A program made the translations under genes and the position numbers. This document shows, piece after piece, positions 1,679-37,937 of a DNA stretch of 64,000 nt (position 1 is its first letter; each line of letters opens with the position of its first letter). The notes under the pieces are model-generated. The model worked only from the letters and a program-made list of their open reading frames with translations, did not search any database and had not been told where the DNA came from. Source of the DNA: an uncultured archaeon (GTDB lineage Archaea; Thermoplasmatota; Poseidoniia; MGIII; CAYLMJ01); contig CAYLMJ010000001.1 in NCBI GenBank assembly GCA_964384995.1, forward strand, positions 100,408 to 164,407, given 5' to 3'.

Positions 1679-4600
1679 TCAAGACTCCAACTTGAGTTTG
1701 GTGGAACATGAGGGGCAGGAGATGAGCAGGGGCCGTTCGGCCGAGGTCACCTTGAGCTTGGTCTGGCAGGCGGGACAGGGGAGGGTCACCGGAGCCGGCA
1801 GCTGTTCTGGGGGCCCATCGGTCCCTCCCGGGTCGGGCGGGCCTTCAGGCGCCCCACCATCGGGCGGGGGCGCGCCGGGAGCCGCCGGGGATGAGGGTGA
1901 TGAGGGAGCGGCGGGATCGGGTTTCGAGCCAGGGGTCGATGGGAGCGCGCCGGGGCTGGCTCCGCCAGCATCGGCTCCGGCCGTGGGAGCGGTCTTGCGC
2001 ATGAAGAGGAAGCCGCCGACGCCCATGCCGGCGATGAGGGCCACCAGAACGCCGTAGAACCAGACCGGGATGCCGCTGTCATCATCGTTGAGCTCCACAT
2101 TGCCATGGATCTGCACCCCGGTGTACGTGCGGTCGTTGTTGGGATTGGCATACTGGCTCTCGGGGGGCTGGATCTCCTCCAGCCGGACCTCGAAGTTGTA
2201 TACGCCGTCGAAGTTCCGGGGCACGTCCCATTCCAGGTCCATCCGAGAGGTGTCCTGGGCGTTGACCTGGAAGTCGTAGGTCATGGTGGGGATGCTCCCG
2301 GGCAGGGTGTTCACCAGATAGACGTACAGCTCGACGACCCCCTGGGCGGCGGAACCGCCGCCATTGTAGATGGTCACCTCGATGGTGGTGGTCTTGCCCC
2401 CCTCCAGCTCATCTTCCACCTCCAGGTCGTCGATCTCCAGGTCTGGGGGCGGGTCCACCCTCAGGTCCTTGCTCTGCTCGGTGTACTCCAGGGTGTTGGG
2501 ATCCCACTTGTCCTTGAACTCGATGGACACCGGCTTGATCAGGTAAATGCGGGCGTCCACGATGTAATCCCCCTCCAGCTCGTTGGAGAAAATGGAGCTG
2601 ACGGGATCGAACGACACCTCCCCGGTGAGGGTCAGGGTGTCGCCCTCCTGGGTGAAGGAGCGGCCGGAAGCGCTGATGGGGGTGGCCTTCAGGGGCGAGT
2701 CACTGCGGGAGACGATGAGCTGGGTGGAGGCGGTGACCTGGATGTCACCCCGGTACTCCCAGGTCATGGTGAAGGTGGCCTCTGTGCCCTCGGACACCAC
2801 CGAGGGGTCCCAGGAGAGGTTGGTGCAGATGAAGAAGGGCAGTTTGCGCACATCGACGTCGATGGTGCTCTCCTCGGTCTGCTTGATGTCGGTCTCCTTG
2901 GCCACGAGGGTCAGCTGGTCGACCTGGGTCACGTTCCAGGTGAAGATGTGCTCGTTCTCGTCCTCCAGCTCCACCGGCAGGATGTACTCTCCCACCAGCT
3001 CGCCGCTCTTGGACCTCTCGTAAAGCCTCAGACGCACCTCGGCATCCCGATCGCCGCTGTTGGAAATGGCCACCCTGATGTCGGCGGTGTCACCCTCGAG
3101 AGCCTCCTCGGTGACCTCGAAGATGGAGATGGCGATATTGGGACTGGTGGGGGTGATGGTGATGTCGGTGTTGACCTTGAAATCGCTGGCCTGGGGGTCC
3201 AGGTCGGGTGGATCTGAACTGGATATCTGGGCGTAGACGTTGTACTCGCCGTCGGGGATGTCGTTCCACTTCACCGAATGGGTGGAGGCCTCCGAATCCA
3301 CCGGCAGGTCCTCGATGAACAGGTCGGCGATGGTGTTGGTGAGGTTGGCGTCCTGGGGCTTGCCCTTCTCGGCGGCCCAGAACTTGATGGACAGGTCCGT
3401 GGCGCCGGTACCGGTGTTGGCCACGTCCACCAGCACATCGATGTCGTGACCCTCGAGGGGTTGACCGGTGGTGCGCAGGTTGGTCAGCTTCAGGTCGGCC
3501 ACGGCGGTGTCCAGGAAGAGTGAGTGGAAGCGCACCGCGCCTTGCGAGCTGCCCCAGACGGCAATGGGGGCCACGGCGATATCCTCCTCGGTGTTGTTCA
3601 CCAGGTAGTTCAGCGTCTTCTTGATGTGGGTGTTGGTGATGAGCAGGGAGACATCGTAGGTGATGGACATCTCGTTGAGCAGGATGCGGCCCTCGCTGGA
3701 GGAGGTGGCCTCGATGGTCAGCTCCACCATCTCGATGCCCCACTTGTCGGGCTGTCTCACATTGCCTCCGCCCAGGGCGTCGTTGAGGGCCTTCTTTAAG
3801 GACTTGGTGGAATAGCCGTCCTGGGCCGACCAGGTCTTGGGGGAGTTGGTGCGGTTCATCTCGCCGGTGAGGCTCCACTCGTAGGTGCCGTCGCCGCCGA
3901 TATCGATGGCCGGGTCGTGGGGATAGGAGGTGGCCTTGGTCATGCGGGTCCAGATCTGCTGGTGGTTCGATTTGGAATCCCGATCGGACCAGGTCATCAT
4001 GGCGTTGCCATTGGCGGTCATCCCCGAGTACATGCTGTAGGCGTTGGTGTTGTCCTTGTTGTCGGAAAGCAACTGACCGTGCTCCCAGTTCAGACCGTAA
4101 TCGGGGGAGAAGGCCATGAAGACATCGTACTGGGGCTGGGGATCGCCGGTGTACCTGAACAGGTAGGTGACGTAGAGCAGGCCATCGTCGCTGATCAGGG
4201 AAGGATAATAGACATAGTAGTAGTAGTCCCCTGAGACATCCATCTCCTGGGAGAGCTTGATGGGGTCATCCCAGGTCTCTCCAAGGTCGCCCGAGCGCAT
4301 GAAGACCACGTCGTTGGAGGTGTCACTGCTGTCCTCCAGACCCACCCACACCACGTAGATATCGGAGCCATCCACGGTGAACTGGGGATAGGTCACCGTT
4401 TCTTCGGTTGGCATCTGCTCGCGCTCAGAGAAGCTGTGGCCCCCATCGGTGGAGACGATGTAATTGGCCCTGGAGGAGTAGACCCAGCCGACCACGATGT
4501 TCTGACCCGACACCGATGTGGAGATGTAGGAGGCCGAGGTTTCGGCGTCGGCTTCGCTCCTCAAGGGTTCGGGATCGGTCCAGGAGGCCCCCTGATCGGT

Positions 4601-6841
4601 GGAACGCATAAGGTAGACCTGGTACTCCAGGGACCTGGATTTGTAGAAGAAGAAATAGAGCTCGTCATCCTCAAAGACCAGGTTGGGGTACTGGAGGGCC
4701 GAATCGTTGGCGTAGATCATCTCGGCGTCGTTCCAGCTCGCACCCTTGTCGTCCGATGTGCGAAGCCAGTACTGGTAGCGGTCATCCTGGGTGTAGTTGT
4801 AGTTGTTGTATTCGTGCCAGAGGGCATAGACATTGCCGCTGTCATCGGTCACGATGGAGGGCATGTAGGTGTAGGTGTAGTAGTTGTAGGCGTGACCCAC
4901 CCGCTGGGTCAGGACCATGTGATCGGTCCAGGTCTCACCCTCATCGGTGGACCGGGCGAAGAACCAATCGCCGTTGGTGCGGGTGCTCAGGTAGTTGCCG
5001 TTGCCGGTGAGATCGCCGCCGTCCCAGTAGACCAGGTAGAAGGTGCCGTCGTCGGCCAGGTAGACCCGAGGAGTGTAGGAATCGCCCTCGAAGAACCCGT
5101 CGGAGGCCACCAGGGTGTTGTTCCAGCTGGCACCCTCGTTCAGACTCTCCCGGACCCAGATATCGGGATCGGGGCCGATGCGCTCGCTGACACCGGGCAA
5201 TCGCACATCGTAGTCGTCGGTCCAGGTGACCAGCAGATCTCCCGAAGAGGGTGATATATCCAGTCTGACCCTTTCCCGGCCGGTGGAATAGGTATCCTCA
5301 TGGATCCGCTCGGCATCGCCAAAGGTGTTGCCGGTGTTGTCCGAGATCCTCAGCCACACATCGTCCTCCTGCCTGCTGCTCCGGTCCTGGGAGGACCAGG
5401 CCACGTAGACAAAGCTGCCATAGGCGGCGATATCGGGATAGGTGGGATAGTACTCCTCGTTGGTATCGGAGAGGGTCTGCTCGGCCTGCCAGTTGGAGCC
5501 GCCATTGGTGGAGCGGCGGTACTGGATGGTGTAGTTGAAGTCGACATTGTCGTACTCGTACCAGGTCACGAAGACGTTGCTGCCGCTGGAGGCCGCCACC
5601 TTGGGCTGATAGGCCGCGAAGGCCGAGGTGGATATGACCCGGGTGTTGGACCAGCTGTTGCCTCCGTTGGAGCTGGAACGCAGGACCACGTCGTAATCGA
5701 TGGTGTTGTCGTTGTCGAAGTTGCCGTTGTCGTACCAGGCCACGAAGATGGTGGAACCCCCCAGCGATATGTCGGGATACTGGGAGTACTGGTAGTCATC
5801 GGGGTCGGCCTTGTCGGTGGGCGATATCATGTGGATGTTGCCCCAGTTCTCGCCCCAGTCCTGGGAGGCCCGGAAGAAGATATCGTAGTTGTAATCGCCG
5901 CTGTTGTTCCAGTAGGAGTGCCACGAGGCGTAGACATTGGTGCCGCTGGCCTCGAGGGTGGGATAGTAGGGGGTGTTGGCGTAGTCGTACTCGCCGGCGA
6001 TGTTCTTGTGCTCGCTCCAGGTATCCCCGTTATCCAAGGAGCGGGTGAAGTCGATGGTGTAGTACCAGCTGCCATTGTAGTAATGACGGTCCTTCCAGGC
6101 CACGTAGACGTTGTCACCGGAAACGGCTATCGCGGGGGGATAGTTGTTGCTCATGTTTGACATGGAGATGATATCGGTCCCGCGCCATTTGGAACCGTCC
6201 CAGCGATTGTAGAATATCTGGTACAGGTTGGAGCCGGTGCGGAAGAGGTCGCCGTTGTCGGTCCAGACCACGTGGATGTTGCCGCTGGCGTCCTTGGCGG
6301 TCTGGGAGTAGCGGGAGTAGGAGCCCTGATTGGTGCTCACAGAGGCGGTGACCCCGTCCTCCAGGTCATCGGTCCCAGCGGGGCGGCCCGAGATGTCCAC
6401 TGTGGCGTCGGTGATGGTGGCGCCCTTGGGGATGAGCAGGGTGGTGGAATCGGGATCGCCGCTGTCGTCGCCGAAGGCGAAGCTGTGGGTGGTGCGGCTG
6501 GAAGCGAAGCGGGTCTGCTCGCCGAAGGCTCCGTAGCCGTTGCCCTCGTAGGCCCAGTCGATCTTATCGTTGTTGCGCACATCGATCCAGACCTTGTCCG
6601 AGTACTCCCCGTCGTCGTCCTCAGGCGAGACCAGGAAGGAGACGTCCAGGACCTCGTCGGCCGGGAAATCGATGCTGGCGTTGTAATCGACATGGTAGGG
6701 AGGCAGGCCCACGGTCACCGAGCTAACCGGCGATTCATCGAAAGTGAACTTGGTGGTGGGGGTATCGGCCCGGGCCGCAAGGCTCACGGGCAACAGGAAG
6801 CAGATAGCCAGCACAAGGGCTACGATCTTTGCCGAACGCAC
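1679..6841 (-). CDS. Giant surface protein: 12 Asp-box/BNR repeats (probably two beta-propellers), CARDB/Ig-like domains, C-terminal TM anchor, Pro-rich linker, terminal Zn ribbon
   Basis: ORF 1679..6886. The likely start is GTG at 6841, because GGTGA lies at 6847-6851 and a TATA box sits directly against the 6886 ATG. Asp-boxes: SLDNGDTW, SQDWGENW, SSNGGNSW, STNGGSNW, SDNTGNTF, SLNEGASW, STDEGETW, SDDKGASW, STDQGASW, STDGGHSF, SGDLGETW, SPDYGLNW. CARDB-like PDLEIDDLEV...VTIYNGG; TM WFYGVLVALIAGMGVGGFLFMRK; tail CPACQ..CPSCS. Confidence 0.88.
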   Translation of the reverse strand: MRSAKIVALVLAICFLLPVSLAARADTPTTKFTFDESPVSSVTVGLPPYHVDYNASIDFPADEVLDVSFLVSPEDDDGEYSDKVWIDVRNNDKIDWAYEGNGYGAFGEQTRFASSRTTHSFAFGDDSGDPDSTTLLIPKGATITDATVDISGRPAGTDDLEDGVTASVSTNQGSYSRYSQTAKDASGNIHVVWTDNGDLFRTGSNLYQIFYNRWDGSKWRGTDIISMSNMSNNYPPAIAVSGDNVYVAWKDRHYYNGSWYYTIDFTRSLDNGDTWSEHKNIAGEYDYANTPYYPTLEASGTNVYASWHSYWNNSGDYNYDIFFRASQDWGENWGNIHMISPTDKADPDDYQYSQYPDISLGGSTIFVAWYDNGNFDNDNTIDYDVVLRSSSNGGNSWSNTRVISTSAFAAYQPKVAASSGSNVFVTWYEYDNVDFNYTIQYRRSTNGGSNWQAEQTLSDTNEEYYPTYPDIAAYGSFVYVAWSSQDRSSRQEDDVWLRISDNTGNTFGDAERIHEDTYSTGRERVRLDISPSSGDLLVTWTDDYDVRLPGVSERIGPDPDIWVRESLNEGASWNNTLVASDGFFEGDSYTPRVYLADDGTFYLVYWDGGDLTGNGNYLSTRTNGDWFFARSTDEGETWTDHMVLTQRVGHAYNYYTYTYMPSIVTDDSGNVYALWHEYNNYNYTQDDRYQYWLRTSDDKGASWNDAEMIYANDSALQYPNLVFEDDELYFFFYKSRSLEYQVYLMRSTDQGASWTDPEPLRSEADAETSASYISTSVSGQNIVVGWVYSSRANYIVSTDGGHSFSEREQMPTEETVTYPQFTVDGSDIYVVWVGLEDSSDTSNDVVFMRSGDLGETWDDPIKLSQEMDVSGDYYYYVYYPSLISDDGLLYVTYLFRYTGDPQPQYDVFMAFSPDYGLNWEHGQLLSDNKDNTNAYSMYSGMTANGNAMMTWSDRDSKSNHQQIWTRMTKATSYPHDPAIDIGGDGTYEWSLTGEMNRTNSPKTWSAQDGYSTKSLKKALNDALGGGNVRQPDKWGIEMVELTIEATSSSEGRILLNEMSITYDVSLLITNTHIKKTLNYLVNNTEEDIAVAPIAVWGSSQGAVRFHSLFLDTAVADLKLTNLRTTGQPLEGHDIDVLVDVANTGTGATDLSIKFWAAEKGKPQDANLTNTIADLFIEDLPVDSEASTHSVKWNDIPDGEYNVYAQISSSDPPDLDPQASDFKVNTDITITPTSPNIAISIFEVTEEALEGDTADIRVAISNSGDRDAEVRLRLYERSKSGELVGEYILPVELEDENEHIFTWNVTQVDQLTLVAKETDIKQTEESTIDVDVRKLPFFICTNLSWDPSVVSEGTEATFTMTWEYRGDIQVTASTQLIVSRSDSPLKATPISASGRSFTQEGDTLTLTGEVSFDPVSSIFSNELEGDYIVDARIYLIKPVSIEFKDKWDPNTLEYTEQSKDLRVDPPPDLEIDDLEVEDELEGGKTTTIEVTIYNGGGSAAQGVVELYVYLVNTLPGSIPTMTYDFQVNAQDTSRMDLEWDVPRNFDGVYNFEVRLEEIQPPESQYANPNNDRTYTGVQIHGNVELNDDDSGIPVWFYGVLVALIAGMGVGGFLFMRKTAPTAGADAGGASPGALPSTPGSKPDPAAPSSPSSPAAPGAPPPDGGAPEGPPDPGGTDGPPEQLPAPVTLPCPACQTKLKVTSAERPLLISCPSCSTKLKLES

Positions 6842-6886
6842 AGATATCACCGACTGTAAATCGTCACCTTTGCTATCCGGCGACAT

Positions 6887-7064: not shown

Positions 7065-7094
7065 CCCTTGACGCCTATTACCCCCACGACCCCA

Positions 7095-23075: not shown

Positions 23076-23110
23076 ATTGAATTGGGTTGCCAACCTTGCG
23101 GGTGAATATC

Positions 23111-28529: not shown

Positions 28530-31500
28530 GTGGCCAGTCGCAGATATGCCATTTCCTTCAGCTTGCTCCTTCTGCTCTCTTCGCTGTTGCTTCCAGGCCC
28601 GTGGAACTCGCCTGCCCATGGCTCGATGACCGGGGATGAACCCCCGACCGACGGCGATTGGGTGGTGGAGCACAATTCAACGGTTCGCGACGAGAGCATT
28701 ACCCTCAACGGCAATCTGACGGTGACCAACAGCTCGGTCCTGGACCTGGCCAACGTGATCCTGCGCCTGAACTGCACCCTCCCGGACGAGTTCTCCATCA
28801 ACGTGGAGGCCGGTTCTAGCCTGATCGCCGACAACACCACCTTCACCCGCGGCGGCCAGCACAACTACAGCTTCACCTTCGCCGGCGGCTCGGCTGGGGC
28901 CCTCAACGACACGCTCATCGAGTATGCCGGGGCCTCGAGCAGGATGGGGCTGACGCTCCAGAGCGAAGCGGTGAGCCTGACCAACTCCACCATCCGCGAG
29001 AGCTACAACGGAGTGGTGGTGCAGAGCCCGGCCCGGATCGCCAGCAACACCATATACAACACCTCGGTGGGTCTGGCCCTGGCCAACAGCGACGCTGGCA
29101 ACGACGTGGAGGCCGACAACACCTTCGAGCATGAGGACCACGGCAACACCATCGCCAACATCCGGTCCTACCGGCCGGTCACCGTGGTCATCCAGGACCA
29201 GGACGGCCAGGGCCTCGAGGCGGCCCGGGTCTACCTCAACGACACCCTGGGCGGCAACTGGGTCGACTCCCTCACTCCGGCCGACGGCCGGATCGGACCC
29301 ATCTCCCAGGTCGTCTGGGAGGTCACCCCCGGCGGGGTCAACCAGAGCCTGGAGCCCTTCGACCTGATCGCCACCAAGCACGGGCGCAGCAACTCCACCC
29401 GGGTCACACCCTCCAACACCACGACCCTGACCCTGGAGCTCAAACTCCTGCCCGACCTGGCGGTGGAGGACTCCCAGATATTGTGGGGAGCCACGCCAGT
29501 TTCCTTGACAGTGGTGCCCTCGGGCCGGGACAACGACACCCAGTTCAAGTACCGGATCATGGATGACCCGTCCCAGTTTCCCTCGGGCTGGTACGAGCCC
29601 GGCTTCAACGATTCGGCCTGGAACGTCAGCGCCGCTCCGTTCGGTGACAAGGACCAGGCCGGGACCGATCTCAACACCATCTGGGATTCCGAGGGCGAGG
29701 ACCCCTACACCAAGGACCATCTCCTGCTCCGTCACCGGTTCACCCTGCCCGAGGGTGCCAGGGTCCTGGACTCGGCCCTCAACGTGGCCTTCAACAATTA
29801 CTGCACCCCCTACCTGAACGGGAACAAGATCTACGACGAAAGGGGCTCCAACACCCACAGCGCCTCCTACTGGAACGGGGACGGGGACGCCGATGTGGAC
29901 CCTGACCACTTCACGGCCGGAGAGAACGTCATGGCCATCTACGGCCGGGACTACGTGTACCAGAGCCATGGCCAGAACAGCCAGTGGCTGGACTTCCAGC
30001 TCACCGCCGAGTACTACATCCCCGGTCGCGGAGACCTGGTGGTGGACTACTCCACCCTCATCGTGACCACCGTGGAGAACCGGGGGGTCGCGGCCGCCCA
30101 GGGCGTCCAGGTCAACCTCTACAACGACTCGACCCTGATGGAGACCAAGACCGTGGACCTGGGCGTCGGCGAGCAGAAGAACGTCTTCTTCGACTGGACC
30201 CCGGGTCACAATGGCACCCAGGTCCTGACCGTGGAGGTGGACGAGAGCCAGGCCATCGAGGAGGAGAACGAGACCAACAACAATGCCTCGGCGGAGGTCT
30301 TCGTGGGCGGCTACGGCATCAACCTGACCACCGATGACAACCACACCGCCATCACCTACAACCTCTCCCACCAGTTCAACCTCACCGCCTTCAACTACGG
30401 CGACATCAACGACAACGTCACCCTGGCCCTGACCCCGATGAACGACGTTACCGGATGGCAGACCCATCTATCACCCCAGCTCCTGGAGATGGAGCCTCAG
30501 GAGAGGTTGAACACCTCCCTGTCCATCCAACCTGTACGCGGGGCGCCGGTGGGCAATTACTCTTTCATCATCGCGGCCAACTCCCAGTTCCAATCCACAG
30601 GTTACACCACCCTGGTCCCCTCCCATTCCGATTGGCGCTGGCTTGACACCGACAACCCTCCCGCAGGCTGGGAGGAATCAGATTACAACGATTCGGGATG
30701 GAGCGAGGCTCCCGCCCCCTTTGGTGCGGGTTCGAACTTCGAGGACGAGGCCACTGAATGGGGCGGCAACGGATGGAGTTCCGATGACGAGGCGGTCTTC
30801 AGGCTCAGGTTCGATCTGACCAGGCCCATCAAGGAAGCCGTGCTCAAGCTGGCTGTGGCCGACGGGGCCCGGGCCTATCTCAACGGGGTGCAGGTTGTGG
30901 ATGACCTACAGGGCGACAATAACGATGGTTCCAGAGGGGCATCCCACTGGGACTACATCACCGGTGAGAAGCCCTCGGGCCTGGCGGCGTTGGATCTCGG
31001 CCTCCTGAACATTGGTGAGAACGTGCTGGCCATCCGCGTCTTCGATACCGGCCGGGCCAACTTCTTCGACGCCGAGTTCGATGTGGCCTATCATAGCGAG
31101 AACACCCAGGAGCTGGTGGTGGAGATCCTGCCCACCCACGACTTCGATCTGGGCAGTTACACCGATGAGTTCGAGCATCCCACCAACACGACCCAGGTCT
31201 ACACCATCAATCTTCACAACTACGGTCACTTCAACGAGACCATCGAGGCCCAACTGCAGGTCAACGACCAGCAGGGCGACTGGACCCACAACCTCTCGGC
31301 CGACAACCTTACCCTGGAGCCCGGCACCGGCGGCAGTCTCACCCTGGAGGTCTTCGCCAACGAGAGCCTCACCCTGGAGGACTATCTTGATCTCACCTTC
31401 ACCTTCCAATCACAGGAGGCTCCCTGGGTCAACCACACCTACGATCTCTTCCTGTGGGCCGACCCGCCCCATTACGAGTTCGAGCTGACCGACCCATCCG

Positions 31501-34364
31501 GTGATGAGGAGCACACGGGAGGCTCCACGGTGTACTACCCCATCGAGGTCACCAACAGCGGCAACCTCAACACCACCCTCAAGGCCACCTACCAGGTCCT
31601 GGACCAAAGCGGCAACTGGACCGTCGGGCTGGCACCCGCCCAGCTCACGCTTCAGGAGGACGAGGTCGGCCAGTTCGACCTGGAGGTCACCGGGGCCAGG
31701 GACCTGCGCGACTGGGACCATCTCAACGTCTCGGTGACAGTCTACCTTGACGACCACTTCGAGCTCAACGAGACCTACCTGCTCAACCTCACGGCGGTGG
31801 AGGCCGACCGGGGGTACTCACTGCACAGCGATTTCGAGAACCACAGCCAGCTGAACAACACCGTGGAGGTCTACTCCCTGACGGTGACCAACCTGGGGAG
31901 TCTCGATGAGATCGTCCTGGCCAACGTGACCATCCTCGAGCAGAGGGGGAACTGGTCCGTCAGACTGCTGGACGACAGCGTGGACCTGGCGGAGGGTGGC
32001 ACGGCGGATGTGGAGATCGAGGTGACGGCGGCTCCCGAACTGCGTTTCTGGGATTACCTGAACCTGTCGGTGGAGGTCACCCTGGAGCAGGGGGCCTGGC
32101 TTCGGGACAGCTACGTGCTGAACGTGACGCCCATCTTCGACGACCATTACCCGCCCGAGACCCGCCTTGTGCCCATGGGCTCCTGGGTGAGGGAATCCAA
32201 CGTGACCCTGGAGTGGGAGGTCATCAAGGATGAGTTCGACACCTTCTACTTCCAGATCCATTACCAGACCGAGGATCCCGGAGGCAACACCTCCGAGTGG
32301 GGTCTGTGGCAGACCTTCAACTACACCACCACCTCGGCCACCTTCCCGGTCCAGGACGGCTGGAGCTACTACATCTACAGCCTGGGCCAGGACGCCCAGG
32401 GCAACCTGGAGCTGGACAAGAAACCCCTCTGGGACAACCATTTCACGGTGGACCTGGAACCCCCCCAGACCCGCCTGTGGCTGACGGATCCGGAACTGGC
32501 AGTGAACAAGGGAACGGTGACCCAGACCGAGCTGGGCCTGGAATGGGCCCCGGTGAACCACTCCAGCCATGCCGATACCGACTACACCTACACCATCGAG
32601 GTCCGCAACCGCTCGGCGGACGGGGCCTTCGGGCCCTGGCAGCCGATGGTGGGTCTTGCGGACACAAAGGTCCAGAACGGCGATCTGGAGGCCCTGGACG
32701 GTCACACCTACCAGTTCCGCTCCATCGCCACCGACCCGGCCGGATGGGTGGAGAACAAGAGCGGCTGGGACCTCCAGGTGGCCATCGACCAAACACCGCC
32801 GGTGACCGGCATCCTGCCCCTGCCCGCCATCCGGGCCGAGACCGAGGTCACCCTCCTGCTGGAATACGAGAACAAGACCGATGTGGCCGAGCTCGAGGTC
32901 CAGTACACCAACTTCCCGGAGGACACACCTCCCAACGAGTATGTCTGGCTCAAGGGGGGCACCTTCCAGCCGGGCCTTCAGGGCCTGCCCGACGACCTGC
33001 AGTTCACCAAGCTGAGCGACGGACAGCGCTACCTCTTCCGCCTCATCGGGACCGACGCCATGGGGAACGTCGAGCCCAGGGACGGGGTCGTGGAGTACTA
33101 CGTGGGCAACCAGACCCCCGGTCAGACCCATCAACTGGGGAAACTGCCCCTGCCATCCCCTTCGACCCCCTACAGCAAGATCAAGGTGGAGGTGGACCCC
33201 GATGGTGATGGCGATTTCGAGGACACCCTGGTGGAGTCCCTTGACAGCGAGATACCCACCAACTCCCCCAACACCTTCCATCTGGACTACACCACCGGCG
33301 TGATCCACTTCGGCCATGGCACCGCCGGCTTCGTGCCCGCCAATGGCACCCAGATCAGGATCACCTACGACGCCTACGACACCGGCACCCTCATCGATTC
33401 CGTGGCTCCCAACGCCCCCGGCGTGTTCGTCAGGTCCGAGTTCAACGAGACCGACGGATCGGCCGAGCTCATCTGGAGGATATCCTCCAGTCCCGACGTG
33501 GTGGCCTACCGCGTCGAATGGACCACCGACCTGAACGGGAACTGGACCGCGGGCCCGGTCGTGGCGGCGGTCTACAAATCGGAGGTGGTCGGCGCAACCC
33601 TGCGGGGCCTGCCCACCGACAAGACCCTCTACGTGCGGGTGGTTTCCGTGGACCGGGCGGGGCTGGAATCGCCGGCCAACGCCTTCGCCACGGTGAACGA
33701 GCAGGCCGTGGAAGGCGAGGATGACGATGACGAAGGCTTCGACCCGACGGTCATGTACGCGCTCTTCCTGCTCAGCCTGGTGGCCTTCACCGTGATCGGC
33801 TACATGCTAATGAGAAGGAAGGACGAGCCGGCCTCGCCCCCGGGATTGGAGCCTCCCCCGCCGGCGGGTGTCTCGGTCATCCCAGCCCAGGAGGCCCGGG
33901 TGGTGGCGGCCCTGGAGGCCCACACCGTATACAAGCGGCCCCAGGGAAACCCCGATGAGCTGAACTGTCCCGATTGCGGATATTACTACACCCCGACGGG
34001 GGAGGACGAGGACCCCGCCTGCCCGGCCTGCGGCTTCCAGGATTCGAAGGTGGATGCGGAGGAGAAAGGGCAGGACGATGGACCGACCGGGGACCTGGAT
34101 GAAGATAAAGAGTCTGAGAAAGAACCAGGCACCGAGCCGGAGAAAGGGACGGAGCAGGACAAGGAAGATGAGGAAGTGCCGGGAACGGACTCGGATGATG
34201 AGAAACGCGGTGAGACCGAAGACCTGGAAGGTTCGGATGATGCCTCCTCCGAGGAACCCGTCCCCGCCGATAGTGATGAGGGAGCCACGCCTCCTGCCGA
34301 AGATGCAGAGAGCAAGGCAGATAGTGAGGATGTTGAGGCACCCGACAAGGATACCGAACAGTAG
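28530..34364 (+). CDS. Giant surface glycoprotein paralog 3 (more divergent, one extra Ig/NEW3-like module)
   Basis: GGTGA-TAAC-GTG at 28530; same domain order; TM VMYALFLLSLVAFTVIGYMLMRRK; CPDC..CPAC; long D/E-rich tail. Confidence 0.88.
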   Translation: MASRRYAISFSLLLLLSSLLLPGPWNSPAHGSMTGDEPPTDGDWVVEHNSTVRDESITLNGNLTVTNSSVLDLANVILRLNCTLPDEFSINVEAGSSLIADNTTFTRGGQHNYSFTFAGGSAGALNDTLIEYAGASSRMGLTLQSEAVSLTNSTIRESYNGVVVQSPARIASNTIYNTSVGLALANSDAGNDVEADNTFEHEDHGNTIANIRSYRPVTVVIQDQDGQGLEAARVYLNDTLGGNWVDSLTPADGRIGPISQVVWEVTPGGVNQSLEPFDLIATKHGRSNSTRVTPSNTTTLTLELKLLPDLAVEDSQILWGATPVSLTVVPSGRDNDTQFKYRIMDDPSQFPSGWYEPGFNDSAWNVSAAPFGDKDQAGTDLNTIWDSEGEDPYTKDHLLLRHRFTLPEGARVLDSALNVAFNNYCTPYLNGNKIYDERGSNTHSASYWNGDGDADVDPDHFTAGENVMAIYGRDYVYQSHGQNSQWLDFQLTAEYYIPGRGDLVVDYSTLIVTTVENRGVAAAQGVQVNLYNDSTLMETKTVDLGVGEQKNVFFDWTPGHNGTQVLTVEVDESQAIEEENETNNNASAEVFVGGYGINLTTDDNHTAITYNLSHQFNLTAFNYGDINDNVTLALTPMNDVTGWQTHLSPQLLEMEPQERLNTSLSIQPVRGAPVGNYSFIIAANSQFQSTGYTTLVPSHSDWRWLDTDNPPAGWEESDYNDSGWSEAPAPFGAGSNFEDEATEWGGNGWSSDDEAVFRLRFDLTRPIKEAVLKLAVADGARAYLNGVQVVDDLQGDNNDGSRGASHWDYITGEKPSGLAALDLGLLNIGENVLAIRVFDTGRANFFDAEFDVAYHSENTQELVVEILPTHDFDLGSYTDEFEHPTNTTQVYTINLHNYGHFNETIEAQLQVNDQQGDWTHNLSADNLTLEPGTGGSLTLEVFANESLTLEDYLDLTFTFQSQEAPWVNHTYDLFLWADPPHYEFELTDPSGDEEHTGGSTVYYPIEVTNSGNLNTTLKATYQVLDQSGNWTVGLAPAQLTLQEDEVGQFDLEVTGARDLRDWDHLNVSVTVYLDDHFELNETYLLNLTAVEADRGYSLHSDFENHSQLNNTVEVYSLTVTNLGSLDEIVLANVTILEQRGNWSVRLLDDSVDLAEGGTADVEIEVTAAPELRFWDYLNLSVEVTLEQGAWLRDSYVLNVTPIFDDHYPPETRLVPMGSWVRESNVTLEWEVIKDEFDTFYFQIHYQTEDPGGNTSEWGLWQTFNYTTTSATFPVQDGWSYYIYSLGQDAQGNLELDKKPLWDNHFTVDLEPPQTRLWLTDPELAVNKGTVTQTELGLEWAPVNHSSHADTDYTYTIEVRNRSADGAFGPWQPMVGLADTKVQNGDLEALDGHTYQFRSIATDPAGWVENKSGWDLQVAIDQTPPVTGILPLPAIRAETEVTLLLEYENKTDVAELEVQYTNFPEDTPPNEYVWLKGGTFQPGLQGLPDDLQFTKLSDGQRYLFRLIGTDAMGNVEPRDGVVEYYVGNQTPGQTHQLGKLPLPSPSTPYSKIKVEVDPDGDGDFEDTLVESLDSEIPTNSPNTFHLDYTTGVIHFGHGTAGFVPANGTQIRITYDAYDTGTLIDSVAPNAPGVFVRSEFNETDGSAELIWRISSSPDVVAYRVEWTTDLNGNWTAGPVVAAVYKSEVVGATLRGLPTDKTLYVRVVSVDRAGLESPANAFATVNEQAVEGEDDDDEGFDPTVMYALFLLSLVAFTVIGYMLMRRKDEPASPPGLEPPPPAGVSVIPAQEARVVAALEAHTVYKRPQGNPDELNCPDCGYYYTPTGEDEDPACPACGFQDSKVDAEEKGQDDGPTGDLDEDKESEKEPGTEPEKGTEQDKEDEEVPGTDSDDEKRGETEDLEGSDDASSEEPVPADSDEGATPPAEDAESKADSEDVEAPDKDTEQ

Positions 34365-34517: not shown

Positions 34518-37500
34518 ATGCGACGCGCTCTGAACCTGTTCCTCTGGGCCCTGCTGTTGCTCACCGTCGGTTGGATGCTCACAGCCCAACCTGGCCAGGC
34601 CATCTCGCTGGCCACCGAGGACATCCTCATCGATACTCCCAGCCTGAACGAGACCTCGCCCCATCTGGACGGCGAATGGCTGGTCTGGCAGGATGACAAC
34701 GGCACCGGCTTCGACAGTGCCAACCAGTTCCGCCTCTGGGCCAGGGACCAGGGGGCACGGGCCGCCGGCGACAGGCTGCTGGTCGACAACACCACCACCT
34801 ACAGCCCGGTCTACCTGGAGGACCCCTGGGTGGTCTGGGAATCCAAGAACCCCACCGGCGGTGACGTCCTTTACGCCCACAACCTGGACGACAACACCAC
34901 CACGACCCCCCTGTGGCCCTACGAGCCCACCAAGTACCATCTCTCGGGAACCTTCCTCTACTACTCGGTCTACAACGGCCAGACCATGAACACCACCTTC
35001 TGGGAGCATAACCTGGCCACCGGCTCGGAGAAGGAGCTCCACACCGAGGCCGGTTCCATCTACAGCTGGGACGTGGACCGCCCCAACCTGATCTTCGCCA
35101 ACAGCACCGACCCCAACGAGACCCTGTGGCATATCACCCTGGGCAGTCGGGCGACGCCCTCCGAGCTCAAGGTGGCCGACATGTTCTCCAGCCTCATCAT
35201 CGTGGGGGACTGGATCGCCTGGACCAACGACACCTCGGTCTTCCTGATGAGCCTGGACGGGGCGCTGTTCTACGAGCTCGAGACCTACATGGGCTACGTC
35301 AACGACACCTACGAGTATCCCTACGATCTCCACCTGGACGGCGACTGGCTGGTGTGGACCGTTTTCAGCTCTCCCGATGGTGACAACCATTACGCCTACG
35401 GCTATGCCCACCATATCCCCACCGAGACGACCATTCCCATCGTGTCCAAGTCCCGGAGTGAAACCGGCCAGACCGGCCTGACGGTGGACCAGGACCGCTT
35501 CGTCTGGCAGGACAGCCGCGGCGCCACCCACGACCTCTGGTGGCGGGAGGTGGCCAATCAGCCGCCCACGGCCATCATCGACTCCATCTCCCCGAACCCC
35601 GCCGAGCAGGGTACCACGGTCTTCTTCTACGGCAACGGCGACGATGCCGACGGGACCATCGCGGCCTACGAGTGGACCTCCAATCTTGTGGGCGGGACCC
35701 TGTCCACGGCCCAGAGCTTCAGCTCCTCCTCCCTGCCGCTGGGAACCCACTCCATCTCCCTGAGGGTCCAGGACAACGAGGGGGAGTGGTCCGAGGCGGT
35801 CACCGAGACCCTGTCCATCACCGCCGCAACCTCCAACGAGGCTCCCACGGCCTACATCAGTTCCATCTCGCCCAATCCGGCCAAGCCGGGACAGATGGTG
35901 AACTTCATCGGCGGTGGCAACGACCCCGACGGCTCCATCGTCTTCTACAGCTGGTGGTCGAGCCGGGATGGCGAGATATCCTTCGAGGCCGAGTTCAGCA
36001 CCGATTCGCTGAGCGAGGGCACCCATTACATCAGTTTTACCGTGGCCGACGATGACAATGCCTACTCCGATGCCGTTGACGCCACCCTGGTTGTGGGCAA
36101 CGCCACGGGCCCGGTGAAGCACATCGACTTCTCCCACCCCGAGGAGGACGGCGAGAAGGTGGAGGGGGACACCCCGGTGTACGTCTACCTGACCATGGAG
36201 GGGGAAGAGAAGCTCTACTACTCCCATCCCCACCGCATCCGACTCCTGCTGGAATCCCCGGCCCTGGACACCAAGACCCTCTTCGACACGGCCAAGAACG
36301 GCTCGGACGAGATCCACGGCGAGAGTATCTTTGCCGTCAACATCTCGGCCATGGACCTGGAGATGCTGAAAAGCTACCTGAAGGACTACGGCTCGGCCTC
36401 CTACTTCTTCCCTCTGGAGGGGACCCTCTTCACCGATGAGCTGCCCAACGGCAGGTACACCCTGCGGACCGAGATACTTGACAGCGAGGGCGAGGTCATC
36501 ATGTCGGCCGAGCGGACCATCGTGGTGGAGAACCCCCGCATCGAGCCGGCACCCGCGGTGGCCGGCGCCGCCGTGGGCGTGGTGGCCGGAGGGGCCGCCG
36601 GAGCGGCCCTGGGAGGCGCCGGGGCGGCCGCCGGAGGCGCGGCCGGAGGAGCCGGCGGTGGAGGGGTCCAGGCCGATGGCGTGGGCTCCAAACTGCGCCG
36701 CAAGAAGAAGCTCACAGGAGGCCTCTTCGGCGAGGGCTTCGCCATCCTCCTGGCCCTCATCGGCATGGTGCTGGCCTACGCCTACGCCAGCCTGGCCCAG
36801 CCCACCCTGGACCCTCTCTCCAACCTCGGCCAGTTCAACACGGTCCTGCTCTCGGACATCGGCGGCTTCCTGGCCGACCTGGGCCACATGGTCCTCTTCC
36901 TGGGCATGGTCATGGCCATCGTCATCATCTTCAGGGCCGGCGTGGACCACCTGGCGGCCCAGGCCCAGGGGGTCAAGTCGGTCTTCAAGCTCCAGGCCCC
37001 GGGAACGGCGGCGCTGGGACTGTCGACAGCCCTGTTCGGCATGCCCTTTGGCTATCCCGCCCAGTCGGTCCACGAGAAGAAGGCGGGCAACGAGCTGAGG
37101 GAGGCCCGCATCGCCATGTCCCAGATAATGGGCACCCTGGTCCTGGTGCTGCCCTTCTGGATCATCTGGCAGTTCGTGGAGGTGGCCCGGTTCATGGCCG
37201 AGATAGGCTTAACAGTGGTGCTGATGACCGCATTCTCCATCGCCATCCCCCTGAAGCACAGCGAGGGCCGCTCCATCTACCGGTGGAGCCGGGAGCTTTC
37301 GCTGGTCATGATGGTCATCCTGGTCTTCTTCTTCTACGGCTGGCAGCTGGACTTCCTGCCCACGGCCCTGCTGCCCCTGCTGGGCCTGGCCGGCATCGCC
37401 GCCATGCCCAACCTGCTCAAACCGGCGCCCAGGGGACCCTCACCCTACGACGACCTGGAGGACGAGGGACCCGGCGACCTGCCCGAGGCGCCAAGGGGCT

Positions 37501-37937
37501 GGGAGAAGGAGCCCGAGGGCGACGAGGCCTTCCGGCCCCCGGACAAGCCGAGGACCGGCTGGGGCGACACCGAGCCCGGAGCGCCAGGCGAGGCGCCGCC
37601 GGGAGATGGCTGGGGCGAGCCCCCCTCACCTGACACCGCCGATGTCGACGGGCCGCCCTCCGAGCCGTTGCCCGAGGCGCCGCCACTGCCCGACGAGCCC
37701 CTGCCAGCCCCCGCCCCCGTCGAGCCGCCCCTGGGCCCACCCGAGGTCGAGCCCGAGGTGAAACCGGATGTGGAGCGGCCGCCCGAGGCCGAACCGGAGA
37801 TAGAGCCCGAGGTCGAGCCCGAGCCGGACGAGGAACCGGAAGAGCCCAGAGAAAGAGAGGCCGCCGCCTGCATCAGCTGTGGGAAGGCCATCGACACCAA
37901 CTGGAAGATCTGCCCCTACTGCTCGACCAAGCAGTGA
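34518..37937 (+). CDS. Surface/membrane protein: beta-propeller repeats, two PKD-like domains, Ala/Gly-rich segment, degenerate M50(S2P)-like multi-TM domain, Pro/Glu linker, double Zn ribbon
   Basis: Signal peptide; repeats such as PHLDGEWLVWQD and LTVDQDRFVWQDSRG; PKD-like NQPPTAIIDSISPNPA and NEAPTAYISSISPNPA; about 7 TM helices; C-terminal CISCG..WKICPYC. Confidence 0.82.
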   Translation: MRRALNLFLWALLLLTVGWMLTAQPGQAISLATEDILIDTPSLNETSPHLDGEWLVWQDDNGTGFDSANQFRLWARDQGARAAGDRLLVDNTTTYSPVYLEDPWVVWESKNPTGGDVLYAHNLDDNTTTTPLWPYEPTKYHLSGTFLYYSVYNGQTMNTTFWEHNLATGSEKELHTEAGSIYSWDVDRPNLIFANSTDPNETLWHITLGSRATPSELKVADMFSSLIIVGDWIAWTNDTSVFLMSLDGALFYELETYMGYVNDTYEYPYDLHLDGDWLVWTVFSSPDGDNHYAYGYAHHIPTETTIPIVSKSRSETGQTGLTVDQDRFVWQDSRGATHDLWWREVANQPPTAIIDSISPNPAEQGTTVFFYGNGDDADGTIAAYEWTSNLVGGTLSTAQSFSSSSLPLGTHSISLRVQDNEGEWSEAVTETLSITAATSNEAPTAYISSISPNPAKPGQMVNFIGGGNDPDGSIVFYSWWSSRDGEISFEAEFSTDSLSEGTHYISFTVADDDNAYSDAVDATLVVGNATGPVKHIDFSHPEEDGEKVEGDTPVYVYLTMEGEEKLYYSHPHRIRLLLESPALDTKTLFDTAKNGSDEIHGESIFAVNISAMDLEMLKSYLKDYGSASYFFPLEGTLFTDELPNGRYTLRTEILDSEGEVIMSAERTIVVENPRIEPAPAVAGAAVGVVAGGAAGAALGGAGAAAGGAAGGAGGGGVQADGVGSKLRRKKKLTGGLFGEGFAILLALIGMVLAYAYASLAQPTLDPLSNLGQFNTVLLSDIGGFLADLGHMVLFLGMVMAIVIIFRAGVDHLAAQAQGVKSVFKLQAPGTAALGLSTALFGMPFGYPAQSVHEKKAGNELREARIAMSQIMGTLVLVLPFWIIWQFVEVARFMAEIGLTVVLMTAFSIAIPLKHSEGRSIYRWSRELSLVMMVILVFFFYGWQLDFLPTALLPLLGLAGIAAMPNLLKPAPRGPSPYDDLEDEGPGDLPEAPRGWEKEPEGDEAFRPPDKPRTGWGDTEPGAPGEAPPGDGWGEPPSPDTADVDGPPSEPLPEAPPLPDEPLPAPAPVEPPLGPPEVEPEVKPDVERPPEAEPEIEPEVEPEPDEEPEEPREREAAACISCGKAIDTNWKICPYCSTKQ

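What the first reader, a model, noticed from the sequence alone, without database searches (positions are those of the whole stretch)
1679..37937. Shared TM anchor + disordered linker + cytoplasmic Zn-ribbon tail on six surface proteins of four unrelated architectures
Seen: after the membrane segment(s) and a Pro/Gly/acidic linker, six proteins carry a CxxC-x(10-17)-CxxC knuckle: CPAC/CPSC (1679-1790), CPNC/CFWC (13808-13916), CMAC/CTAC (22643-22711), CLAC/CPAC (28181-28249), CPDC/CPAC (33966-34034) and CISC/CPYC (37869-37937). Their ectodomains are unrelated (BNR propeller, M6 protease, adhesin paralogs, PKD/propeller). A stand-alone CxxC..CxxC mini-protein is also present (47838-48038). Knowledge: C-terminal zinc ribbons are common annotations in Thermoplasmatota, but I know of no assigned role. 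Inference: a common cytoplasmic tag for localisation, sorting, turnover or outside-in signalling, an alternative to archaeosortase anchoring.
Basis: partly seen in the sequence, partly recalled or inferred. Interest (0 to 1): 0.72.

Follow-up and report, generated by a model that had tools for sequence, protein, structure and literature searches.

The report
Cytoplasmic zinc-ribbon tails on archaeal surface proteins
Six (with a neighbour, seven) giant surface proteins of an uncultured marine Thermoplasmatota archaeon each end in a membrane anchor, a floppy linker and a small zinc-binding knob inside the cell; the knobs are conserved but of several unrelated kinds, one of which is a widespread, portable C-terminal module that probably docks these proteins to something in the cytoplasm.

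Summary
All six ORFs have an N-terminal signal-like segment, a C-terminal TM (F: about 7 TMs), a 53-150 aa Pro/Gly/Ala/acidic linker and a CxxC-x10-17-CxxC motif that holds 4 of only 4-8 cysteines (0/20,000 shuffles). The flanking charges put the tails in the cytoplasm. Orthologues keep the ribbon while the linker drifts. A seventh such protein starts at window 1675 and runs off the edge.

The "one shared tag" reading holds only in part. There are at least four ribbon types: A (basic, x16), B (private to this lineage), C/D/E (acidic, not terminal) and F (DZR-like). Only A and the off-window neighbour belong to one family. I call it the "RP ribbon": [IV]xCPxCx5[VI]x4RPx4CPxC. It passes NCBIfam's MJ0042-type zinc-finger cutoff and models as a LysW/ZitP-like ribbon.

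This family has 429 clusters. It sits almost always at the extreme C-terminus, in 1-7 tandem copies after the last TM, on many different ectodomains. It is almost confined to Thermoplasmatota. It also ends DnaK, coiled-coil proteins and small soluble proteins.

Best reading: a leash-mounted cytoplasmic docking knob, analogous to ZitP-PopZ, GltJ-MglB and haloarchaeal CdpC-FtsZ1. The partner is unknown. This is a new variant of a known kind.

The parts
1..1675 (-). N-terminal 558 codons of a 2372-aa beta-propeller surface protein that runs off the window. Outside the window it has a TM (aa 2114-2132), a ~210-aa linker and a terminal CPSC-x16-CSGC ribbon.
   Evidence: L214 15212-22330. Its ribbon scores 39.4 bits with the RP-ribbon HMM.
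1679..6886 (-). Protein A, 1735 aa: signal-like N-terminus, BNR_2 propeller, CARDB, TM, linker, RP-type ribbon.
2003..2059 (-). A: C-terminal TM (aa 1610-1628), followed by MRK.
1778..2002 (-). A: 75-aa P/A/G-rich linker.
   Evidence: It diverges among orthologues.
1706..1777 (-). A: RP-type (MJ0042-type) zinc ribbon CPACQTKLKVTSAERPLLISCPSC, 8 aa from the C-terminus.
   Evidence: TIGR02098 21.4 bits against a cutoff of 20.9. RP HMM 63 bits. AF2 gives four strands in two hairpins, pLDDT 78.5. About 75% identical in an orthologue that is only 35% identical overall.
8244..13916 (+). Protein B, 1890 aa: M6 metalloprotease/MAM/CARDB ectodomain, TM (13338-13394), 138-aa G/P/D linker, ribbon.
13809..13883 (+). 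B: ribbon CPNC-x17-CFWC, a lineage-private type.
   Evidence: 70-75% identical in orthologues P0001 and P0002, against 34% for the linker. Zero pattern matches in GTDB genomes.
17534..23014 (+). Protein C, 1826 aa: CARDB/fn3 adhesin-like (the Beta_helix hit is on paralogue D); TM 22406-22462; ribbon 22643-22708; then a 101-aa acidic tail.
23087..28387 (+). Protein D, paralogue of C: TM 27953-28009; ribbon 28181-28246; 46-aa acidic tail.
28512..34364 (+). Protein E, paralogue of C and D: TM 33750-33806; ribbon 33966-34031; 110-aa acidic tail.
   Evidence: The orthologue in L014 keeps the C4.
34518..37937 (+). Protein F, 1139 aa: signal, PKD domains, ~7-TM block (36558-37415), 150-aa P/E linker (37416-37868), terminal ribbon CISC-x10-CPYC (37869-37922).
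   Evidence: The orthologue in L014 ends CVKCNKGIDVDWKICPYCSTKQ.
42121..46383 (+). Protein G, 1420 aa (comparison only): CarboxypepD_reg repeats, 1 Cys, ends in a motif-TM-RRRR sorting-signal-like C-terminus with no ribbon.
   Evidence: TIGR04126 PGF_CTERM is not matched.
47838..48062 (-). Stand-alone 74-aa (or 66-aa) CVSC-x17-CQTC protein. No link to the tails was found.
   Evidence: RP HMM 3 bits.
38060..39028 (-). TtuA-like tRNA thiolation enzyme: the only soluble enzyme in the window with a C4 finger, which is intrinsic to its family. Used as a control.
   Evidence: (TtuA_LIM_N, ATP_bind_3).

Best explanation
Each tail is a small Zn(Cys)4 beta-ribbon held in the cytoplasm on a long disordered leash behind the membrane anchor of a large envelope protein. 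It most likely works as a docking knob. It would bind a cytoplasmic partner, such as a scaffold, cytoskeletal polymer or regulator. That would fix where the surface protein sits, cluster it, or couple it to internal machinery.

The six tails are not one tag. They are several ribbon types recruited in parallel, presumably with different partners.

A's ribbon, and that of its off-window neighbour, belongs to a large Thermoplasmatota family of basic "RP ribbons". These behave as a portable C-terminal address module. They occur in 1-7 tandem copies on many ectodomains, and also on DnaK and coiled-coil proteins.

Shown: the anatomy, conservation, family membership, distribution and modelled fold.
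Inferred: cytoplasmic topology (charge rule), zinc binding, and protein docking (by analogy).
For: Topology:
- K/R cluster after the last TM and an acidic stretch before it.
- Across 90 RP-ribbon proteins, 2.44 K+R after the TM against 0.78 before; 71 proteins show more after, 5 show more before.
- A self-consistent 7-TM model for F, with its positive loops inside.

Selection on the ribbon:
- B: ribbon 0.70-0.75 identity against linker 0.34.
- F: ribbon 0.70 against linker 0.52.
- A's ribbon is nearly unchanged in an orthologue of 35% overall identity.
- The C4 is kept in all C-family homologues.

Family and spread:
- RP-ribbon HMM: 429 clusters at E<=1e-3.
- Of the best 150, 90 have all ribbons after the last TM and only 2 before the first. 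The spacer is x16 in 263 of 353 ribbons. The last ribbon ends a median 7 aa from the C-terminus.
- Host ectodomains include BNR, S8 subtilase, PKD/NosD and Ig-like domains.
- NCBIfam MJ0042_CXXC is passed: A 21.4, P0138 50.9, P0142 33.6, against a cutoff of 20.9.
- AF2 ribbon model. Best PDB matches are LysW (TM 0.68-0.77) and the ZitP zinc finger 2nb9 (TM 0.61).
- A DNA pattern scan of GTDB genomes returned 120 loci: 64 explicitly Thermoplasmatota, Poseidoniales, MGII or MGIII, 38 labelled only as archaeal, and 17 bacterial, which look like chance matches or small soluble proteins.
- The same ribbon ends DnaK and coiled-coil proteins.

Precedents for a membrane-tethered zinc ribbon that binds a cytoplasmic protein:
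- ZitP-PopZ (PMC5182065).
- GltJ ZnR-linker, binding MglB (PMC11135422).
[quoted passage not shown] Remote multi-ribbon relatives are reported in all Thermoplasmatota classes (bioRxiv 10.64898/2026.07.16.738847).
Against: - No partner was identified. No conserved neighbour points to one: neighbourhoods of the commonest RP host show only synteny, with a DtxR-like repressor and DUF7121 coiled-coil genes.
- RP ribbons are strongly basic (mean +4; 128 of 218 are >= +4). That equally suits binding to anionic lipid or nucleic acid.
- C/D/E ribbons are acidic and embedded in acidic tails, so they cannot work the same way.
- No Pfam DUF7093 (CdpC) hit appeared among the listed matches.
- Zinc binding and topology are predictions. 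No dedicated TM or signal-peptide predictor was available.
Confidence: 0.45

Rival explanations
1. The basic RP-type ribbons bind the inner face of the membrane (anionic archaeal lipids). They would act as auxiliary interfacial anchors for tails and as membrane-targeting tags for soluble proteins such as DnaK and coiled-coil proteins.
For: Mean net charge is +4, and linkers are often K-rich (P0138). This would explain the same tag on both TM and soluble proteins. Tandem copies would give avidity.
Against: 23 of 218 RP ribbons are neutral or acidic. The ribbons of B and C/D/E carry 0 to -7. A TM-anchored protein does not need membrane targeting. The closest characterised relatives bind proteins.
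Confidence: 0.18
2. The basic ribbons bind nucleic acid. They would tether the nucleoid or RNA to the envelope, or mark SMC-like coiled-coil proteins.
For: The ribbon is basic. Many zinc ribbons bind DNA or RNA, and the ZitP fold resembles Cren7 (PMC5182065). One coiled-coil host shows weak similarity to SMC-related proteins.
Against: There is no obvious logic for proteases, sialidase-like proteins or DnaK to bind nucleic acid. The ribbons of C/D/E are acidic. The characterised MJ0042-type fingers bind proteins.
Confidence: 0.08
3. The ribbon has no ligand. It is a compact folded cap that stabilises a long disordered tail against proteolysis, fixes C-in topology, or resists extraction of the single TM anchor.
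For: It sits at the extreme C-terminus in A, B, F and most RP proteins. Any fast-folding zinc knuckle would serve, which would explain why several unrelated ribbon types occur.
Against: Surface residues beyond the Cys are strongly conserved, for example the RP loop and TKLKL in A down to 35% overall identity. Tandem arrays of up to 7 ribbons would be superfluous. In C/D/E the ribbon is internal, with 46-110 disordered residues after it, so it cannot be a cap.
Confidence: 0.15
4. The Cys4 site is a redox or metal sensor. It would release zinc on oxidation, as in zinc-containing anti-sigma factors, and so signal across or at the membrane.
For: Cys4 zinc sites can act as redox switches (general knowledge). 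The tails belong to receptor-like architectures, for example F with a 7-TM block.
Against: There is no associated output domain or sigma-like partner. No evidence here bears on it.
Confidence: 0.05

Closest known systems
MJ0042-type zinc finger domain (NCBIfam TIGR02098; Pfam Zn_ribbon_4 and Zn_ribbon_5), as in Caulobacter ZitP and Myxococcus GltJ/AgmX
   Same: A C4 beta-ribbon of about 35-40 aa on the cytoplasmic side of a TM protein, joined by a flexible linker. A-type ribbons pass the TIGR02098 cutoff. The model superposes on the ZitP finger 2nb9. ZitP and GltJ ribbons are protein-docking modules (PMC5182065, PMC11135422).
   Different: Here the ribbon is C-terminal, behind a type-I anchor, not N-terminal before a TM. 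The spacer is x16 with an invariant RP loop. There are 1-7 tandem copies. The hosts are archaeal. No DUF3426 or GYF domain is present. PopZ, MglB and AglZ are bacterial partners.
Haloferax volcanii CdpC (HVO_0399, DUF7093), the membrane anchor of FtsZ1
   Same: [quoted passage not shown] The authors report remote multi-ribbon relatives in all Thermoplasmatota classes (bioRxiv 10.64898/2026.07.16.738847).
   Different: CdpC attaches through an amphipathic helix and C3H ribbon, not a TM. It has no ectodomain. No DUF7093 hit appeared among the listed Pfam matches of the tails. FtsZ binding by the ribbons here is untested.
LysW/ArgW amino-group carrier protein (globular zinc-ribbon domain)
   Same: The best structural match (TM 0.68-0.77, rmsd 1.0-1.5 A). 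The same CxxC-x16-CxxC spacing is visible in the alignment. Pfam Zn_ribbon_LysW is passed by some RP ribbons (P0138 39.0, P0142 33.4 and P0179 31.8 bits against a cutoff of 27).
   Different: LysW is a free acidic protein with a C-terminal EDWGE acceptor tail, used in lysine and arginine biosynthesis. RP ribbons are basic, tethered, and lack that tail. TIGR01206 lysW scores 24.3 against a cutoff of 53.2.
Generic DZR / Zn_Ribbon_1 (zinc_ribbon_2) domains next to TM segments
   Same: F's CISCG-x8-ICPYC end is of this kind (DZR 25.0 bits, Zn_Ribbon_1 22.6 bits). Such ribbons flank TMs in many Thermoplasmata membrane proteins and in a Thermoplasmatales M6 protease, P0046.
   Different: F's scores lie just below the Pfam cutoffs. 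No function is assigned to these domains in any case.
PGF-CTERM/archaeosortase-type C-terminal sorting signals
   Same: An alternative C-terminal end on homologous ectodomains (M6 homologues P0010-P0019). It is also found on other proteins of the same island: G, and the 787-aa propeller protein in L214.
   Different: Those ends are a short motif, a TM and a basic stub, presumably cleaved. The tails here are long, carry a folded domain, and show no cleavage motif. G's end does not match TIGR04126.

Membership tests
MJ0042-type zinc finger (TIGR02098 / PF13717, PF13719) | HMM score at or above the curated cutoff | tested here: met
   NCBIfam TIGR02098, cutoff 20.9: A tail 21.4 (marginal), P0138 50.9, P0142 33.6, P0179 25.4. 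Pfam Zn_ribbon_5 for the A tail is 28.8 against 29.3, just below. B, C, E and F do not hit TIGR02098.
MJ0042-type zinc finger (TIGR02098 / PF13717, PF13719) | Two CxxC knuckles forming a two-hairpin zinc ribbon | tested here: met
   AF2 model of A's ribbon: strands 5-8, 15-18, 25-28 and 35-38 with the knuckles between them, pLDDT 78.5. It matches the ZitP finger 2nb9 at TM 0.61. Zinc itself was not modelled.
MJ0042-type zinc finger (TIGR02098 / PF13717, PF13719) | Usual position at the N-terminus of the protein (family description, recalled from memory) | tested here: not met
   In 90 of 150 representatives all ribbons follow the last TM. In 2 of 150 they precede the first TM. The median distance to the C-terminus is 7 aa.
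ZitP | N-terminal ZnR, a TM and a periplasmic DUF3426 domain; PopZ as partner | tested here: not met
   Pfam scans of A-F show no DUF3426. The orientation is reversed. PopZ presence was not tested; it is alphaproteobacterial.
GltJ-type ZnR-linker-GYF switch | A ZnR adjacent to a GYF domain through a flexible linker | tested here: not met
   No GYF domain was reported in the Pfam scans of A-F or of 19 RP-ribbon hosts.
CdpC (DUF7093) | Sequence membership in DUF7093 | tested here: not met
   DUF7093 is absent from the listed Pfam hits of the tails (best 25 at E<=10) and of multi-ribbon proteins at E<=1e-3. Profile-profile comparison with CdpC itself was not possible because I had no sequence.
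CdpC (DUF7093) | Membrane attachment, long disordered linker, C-terminal C4 ribbon | tested here: met
   The layout is present in A, B and F, and in 90 RP-ribbon proteins. The attachment is a TM, not an amphipathic helix.
CdpC (DUF7093) | The C-terminal ribbon binds FtsZ1 | not testable with these tools
   Needs binding assays or complex prediction.
LysW | TIGR01206 equivalog score; acidic C-terminal acceptor tail | tested here: not met
   P0138 scores 24.3 against a cutoff of 53.2. The tails end ...KLKLES or ...LKK, not EDWGE. Only the fold and spacing agree.
DZR / Zn_Ribbon_1 (for F) | Pfam gathering score | tested here: inconclusive
   DZR 25.0 against 27.3. Zn_Ribbon_1 22.6 against 25. Zn_ribbon_3 22.2 against 27.
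PGF-CTERM (for G, the comparison protein) | TIGR04126 match | tested here: not met
   No TIGR04126 hit for G's last 45 aa at E<=1. A PGF-bearing M6 homologue scores only 10.6 against 24.5.

The most novel reading that the evidence does not exclude
The RP ribbon is a Thermoplasmatota-wide C-terminal address tag. It would plug envelope proteins (proteases, glycosidase-like propellers, adhesins), coiled-coil proteins and the DnaK chaperone into one cytoplasmic hub. That hub could be an FtsZ/CetZ-type polymer, as CdpC's ribbon binds FtsZ1, or a PopZ-like matrix. Tandem copies would give multivalent, focal-adhesion-like coupling of the cell surface to an internal skeleton in the most abundant planktonic archaea.
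Probability: 0.2. Interest if true: 0.85.

Novelty: new variant of a known kind. Interest (0 to 1): 0.6.

Why it matters
Poseidoniia (Marine Group II and III) are among the most abundant archaea in the surface ocean. None is cultured, and nothing is known of how their envelope is organised.

Many of their large secreted-and-anchored enzymes and adhesins carry a conserved cytoplasmic zinc-ribbon module. The same module sits on DnaK and on coiled-coil proteins. This gives a concrete, testable handle on surface-to-cytoplasm coupling in these cells.

It also extends the few characterised cases of membrane-tethered zinc ribbons used as docking or localisation signals (ZitP, GltJ, CdpC) to a new orientation, a new phylum and a multivalent form.

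In practice, the RP-ribbon motif is a simple marker for type-I envelope proteins in Thermoplasmatota metagenomes.

Tried and rejected
- The search for related loci with F in GTDB genomes returned only PKD-domain matches in bacteria. The orthologue was reached instead through the neighbouring TtuA gene.
I replaced it with a degenerate DNA pattern.
- A B-type ribbon pattern found nothing in GTDB genomes, so B's ribbon is lineage-private.
- Cluster look-up gave almost no names: one "Candidatus Poseidoniia archaeon".
- Literature searches for zinc ribbons on Poseidoniales/MGII or archaeal surface proteins found nothing specific. One search turned up CdpC.
- The idea that all six ribbons are homologous was rejected.
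- The idea that G carries a bona fide PGF-CTERM was not confirmed.
- A blastp cluster that looked like 12 DnaK-ribbon fusions was joined through the ribbons alone. Only L134, L159, L167, L204 and probably L170 are DnaK.
- Neighbourhood clustering around RP hosts gave synteny but no convincing partner.
- The stand-alone mini-protein shows no relation to the tails.
- The weak DnaJ_C hit of the Cys-less replacement module (19.4 bits against a cutoff of 26.6) is treated only as a hint.


Full report
WHAT IS THERE

The window is a 63% GC contig of an uncultured marine archaeon. Identical genes occur on 36-161 kb contigs of several marine metagenomes. The closest species-level genome (GTDB contig CAYSUX01, labelled "uncultured archaeon") shares 88% identity in the TtuA-like enzyme. 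All other Thermoplasmata share 53% or less. Homologues of the surface proteins are named Candidatus Poseidoniia, Thermoplasmata or Thermoplasmatota.

Six ORFs of 1139-1950 aa (A-F) have these features:
- an N-terminal hydrophobic signal-like segment;
- a large ectodomain;
- one strong C-terminal TM (F: a block of about seven TMs);
- a linker of 53-150 aa rich in P, G, A, D and E;

The ectodomains are unrelated. A has a BNR_2 propeller plus CARDB. B has Peptidase_M6, MAM and CARDB. C, D and E are beta-helix/CARDB/fn3 paralogues. F has PKD domains.

Each protein has only 4-8 cysteines, four of them in the motif. Random placement of the cysteines never reproduced the motif in 20,000 trials per protein.

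Looking 10 kb beyond the window start shows that the minus-strand ORF occupying window 1-1675 is the start of a seventh such protein. It has 2372 aa: a beta-propeller, a TM, a 210-aa linker and a terminal CPSC-x16-CSGC.

Two other large surface proteins of the island end instead in a short motif-TM-RRRR stub without cysteines. These are G at 42121-46383 and a 787-aa propeller/PKD protein outside the window. So seven of nine giant envelope proteins in about 75 kb carry the tail.

Among the window's roughly 20 soluble proteins, only the TtuA-like enzyme has C4 fingers, and those are intrinsic to its family. The other C4 carriers are a ferredoxin (Fe-S) and a 74-aa stand-alone protein.

TOPOLOGY

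In A-E the 15 residues before the anchor hold 0-1 K/R and 4-8 D/E, often a DDDD run. The 15 after it hold 2-3 K/R (MRK, WRRR, NKRK, NKRR, MRRK).

For F, a seven-TM model places all three K/R-rich loops, and the tail, on the same side.

By the positive-inside rule the tails are cytoplasmic. A reduced Cys4 site fits that compartment. This is inference, since no dedicated predictor was available.

CONSERVATION

- B against its 70%-identical orthologues: ectodomain 0.73, TM 0.85, linker 0.34, ribbon 0.70-0.75.
- F against the CAYSUX orthologue: ectodomain 0.55, TM block 0.76, linker 0.52, ribbon 0.70. It ends ...DWKICPYCSTKQ in both.
- A's ribbon (CPACQTKLKVTSAERPLLISCPSCSTKLKLES) is almost unchanged in homologues of 81%, 72% and even 35% overall identity. 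Homologues of 25% identity carry two tandem copies.
- In the C/D/E family the four Cys, and a few flanking residues (E-F-x-C-x-x-C-G..F.P...C-P-A-C), are kept in all close homologues.

So the ribbons are under selection and the linkers are not.

ONE TAG OR SEVERAL?

The ribbons differ in spacer (16, 17, 14, 14, 14, 10) and in net charge (A +3, B 0, C -5, D -4, E -7, F +2). They also differ in position: terminal in A, B and F, but followed by 46-110 acidic residues in C-E.

An HMM built from 218 A-type ribbons scores A at 63 bits and the off-window neighbour at 39 bits. It scores B at 17 bits and C-F at 10-15 bits. The unrelated TtuA finger scores 13 bits.

F resembles the common DZR/Zn_Ribbon_1 type, just under the Pfam cutoffs. 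B's type occurs only in its own orthologues, and its DNA pattern has no match in 185,579 species genomes. AF2 models support small two-hairpin knuckle folds for A (pLDDT 78.5) and for C/D/E (pLDDT 73.6).

The shared feature is therefore an architecture, reached with at least four ribbon types. It is not one homologous tag.

THE A-TYPE "RP RIBBON" IS A LARGE, PORTABLE MODULE

A 40-column profile of A-type ribbons found 429 clusters (50% identity representatives) at E<=1e-3, and 59 at E<=1e-10.

In the best 150:
- 90 have every ribbon after the last TM, 58 of them with an N-terminal hydrophobic segment as well;
- 55 have no TM (many are short);
- only 2 have ribbons before the first TM;
- there are 1-7 ribbons per protein, most often 2-3;
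- the Cys spacer is x16 in 263 of 353 ribbons;
- the last ribbon ends a median 7 residues from the C-terminus;
- K+R is 2.44 after the TM against 0.78 before it (71 proteins against 5).

The consensus is [IV]xCPxCxxx[LIF]x[VI]xxxxRP[LIV]x[IV]xCPxCxxxxx[LI]. The ribbons are basic, with a mean net charge of +4.

Host ectodomains are diverse: BNR, S8 subtilase with CARDB and PKD, NosD/beta-helix with PKD, and FixG_C/NPCBM Ig-like domains.

By NCBIfam's curated cutoff these are MJ0042-type zinc fingers: A 21.4, P0138 50.9, P0142 33.6 and P0179 25.4, against 20.9. Pfam splits them among Zn_ribbon_4/5, Zn_ribbon_LysW, DZR and several DUFs.

The AF2 model matches LysW best (TM 0.68-0.77) and next the ZitP zinc finger (2nb9, TM 0.61). 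The Foldseek E-values are not significant at this length.

The breakdown is:
- 64 are explicitly Thermoplasmatota, Thermoplasmata, Poseidoniales, MGII or MGIII;
- 38 are labelled only Methanobacteriota, Euryarchaeota or uncultured archaeon;
- 1 is labelled Halobacteriales;
- 17 are bacterial.

In the archaeal loci 82 of 104 host ORFs have the ribbons after the last TM. The bacterial matches are mostly out of any ORF, or in small soluble proteins. Several genomes have multiple hosts. The closest relative of the window has a 787-aa protein with three ribbons (L168) and a 266-aa one (L147).

THE SAME RIBBON ON SOLUBLE PROTEINS

The RP ribbon also ends several soluble proteins:
- DnaK: L134 is a complete 727-aa DnaK (928 bits to the DnaK equivalog) with two ribbons. 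Partial DnaKs occur in L159, L167 (with DnaJ next door), L204 and probably L170.
- Long coiled-coil proteins: L121, and the L151/L200 family. In L151 this gene lies directly after a TM-ribbon protein.
- A 122-130 aa soluble family.

So the module is a general C-terminal tag on the cytoplasmic side. It is not a mark of surface proteins as such.

ANCHOR SWAPPING

Among 120 M6-protease homologues of B, only the two close orthologues and one Thermoplasmatales protein have a TM-plus-ribbon tail. That protein, P0046, has an F-type CIKCG..CPYC end.

Other archaeal homologues have a plain TM, a PGF-like motif-TM-basic end, or a TM with a short tail ending ..WE. Bacterial homologues have T9SS or dockerin-like ends.

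In the A family, homologues of 26-28% identity replace the ribbon with a Cys-less module, LTVTVPAGAQPGQQIQI...IPAGLQPGSKFQVKV, at the same place. It gives only a weak DnaJ_C hit. One remote homologue has a RING-like tail.

The end of the tail is thus a swappable cassette.

MECHANISM

The characterised membrane-tethered ribbons of this kind are protein-docking devices:
- The ZitP ribbon is sufficient for PopZ-dependent polar localisation (PMC5182065).
- The GltJ ribbon binds its own linker and then MglB (PMC11135422).
[quoted passage not shown] Its ribbon binds FtsZ1 with KD ~1e-7 M. The authors report remote multi-ribbon relatives in all Thermoplasmatota classes (bioRxiv 10.64898/2026.07.16.738847).

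By analogy I favour a cytoplasmic docking knob on a leash (confidence 0.45). This rests on the conservation of non-Cys surface residues, the tandem multivalency, and the reuse of the ribbon on DnaK and coiled-coil proteins.

The strong positive charge of RP ribbons keeps lipid binding (0.18) and nucleic-acid binding (0.08) open. A ligand-free cap or stabiliser (0.15) fits the variety of ribbon types. It does not fit the conserved surfaces, the tandem arrays, or the internal position in C-E.

The acidic C/D/E ribbons must work differently from A's.

No partner was found. Neighbourhoods of the commonest RP host (45 ORFs in 44 Poseidoniales loci) show conserved DtxR-like and DUF7121 coiled-coil genes, but this may be plain synteny.

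VERDICT

They are not a single tag, and the function is untested.
- The domain class is known (MJ0042-type, DZR-type ribbons; membrane-tethered ZnR docking modules).
- What I did not find described is the C-terminal, post-TM, often tandem arrangement on type-I envelope proteins of Thermoplasmatota, and its sharing with DnaK and coiled-coil proteins. I rate it a new variant of a known kind.

Noticed in passing
L134 3380-5560 (+); also L159, L167, L204, probably L170: DnaK (Hsp70) of several Thermoplasmatota MAGs carries 2-3 RP-type zinc ribbons at its C-terminus, the same module as on the surface-protein tails. In L167 a DnaJ gene lies next door.
   Followed up: partly
L121 5293-6918 (-); L151 1143-2174 (+); L200 1649-2641 (+); L129/L142/L153/L172 small ORFs: Long coiled-coil proteins and a 122-130 aa soluble family (FPDFxYRFFP...GPVYRPSG...) also end in one RP ribbon. 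In L151 the coiled-coil gene directly follows a TM-ribbon surface protein.
   Followed up: partly
Proteins P0023-P0031, P0051, P0063, P0076 (homologues of window 8244-13916): Many Thermoplasmata M6 proteases with a TM and a short cytoplasmic tail end in ..[VN][KN]WE or ..EWGE. This is a conserved C-terminal motif reminiscent of the LysW EDWGE acceptor end. Its meaning is unknown.
   Followed up: no
Proteins P0125-P0127 (homologues of window 1679-6886): Distant A-family members have no cysteines. They replace the ribbon with a duplicated [VI]PAGxQPGxxhQ[IV] module at the same C-terminal position. It gives a weak sub-threshold DnaJ_C similarity (E 1e-3, 19.4 bits).
   Followed up: partly
Protein P0137 (remote homologue of A): The cytoplasmic tail after the TM carries a RING-like C4HC3-type finger (zf-RING_2 E 2e-4, Prok-RING_1 E 1.6e-3) instead of a ribbon.
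   Followed up: no
window 42121-46383 (+) and L214 22531-24894 (-): Two large surface proteins of the same island end in a short PG-containing motif, a TM and RRRR (LPGLGGLMAALAMIGVATVMGRRRR; PAPGAPLVMVGLMALALFLRRRRD). This looks like a sorting signal, but TIGR04126 PGF_CTERM does not match it. It may be a lineage-specific archaeosortase-type signal.
   Followed up: partly
window 46523-47767 (+): A 414-aa membrane protein with an N-terminal CEGCH (haem c-like) motif, an acidic extracytoplasmic domain and a C-terminal cytochrome b561/ferric-reductase-like TM domain (sub-threshold Pfam hits).
   Followed up: no
L094-L213 (for example L164 3803-5437, L132 2345-3343, L137 595-1452, L198 727-1383): The commonest RP-ribbon host in Poseidoniales (about 520-630 aa, two ribbons, 44 loci) sits in a conserved neighbourhood. 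The neighbours are a DtxR-like iron-dependent repressor, a 522-aa membrane protein and two or three paralogous coiled-coil proteins (DUF7121).
   Followed up: partly
window 7068-8221 (+), 14271-15206 (+): Between the surface-protein genes lie an ArsR-family (PF09824) regulator, a 208-aa membrane protein with a disordered N-terminus, and a TPD-domain protein. The same order is kept in all public contigs that carry the island.
   Followed up: no
L016-L072 (loci around TtuA in Methanomassiliicoccales and other Thermoplasmata): Small membrane proteins with an N-terminal CPNCG-x10-FCxxC ribbon before 2-3 TMs lie in tandem just upstream of TtuA in many genomes. Another family has a C-terminal CEVCG..CKNC ribbon after 3-4 TMs just downstream.
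   Followed up: no
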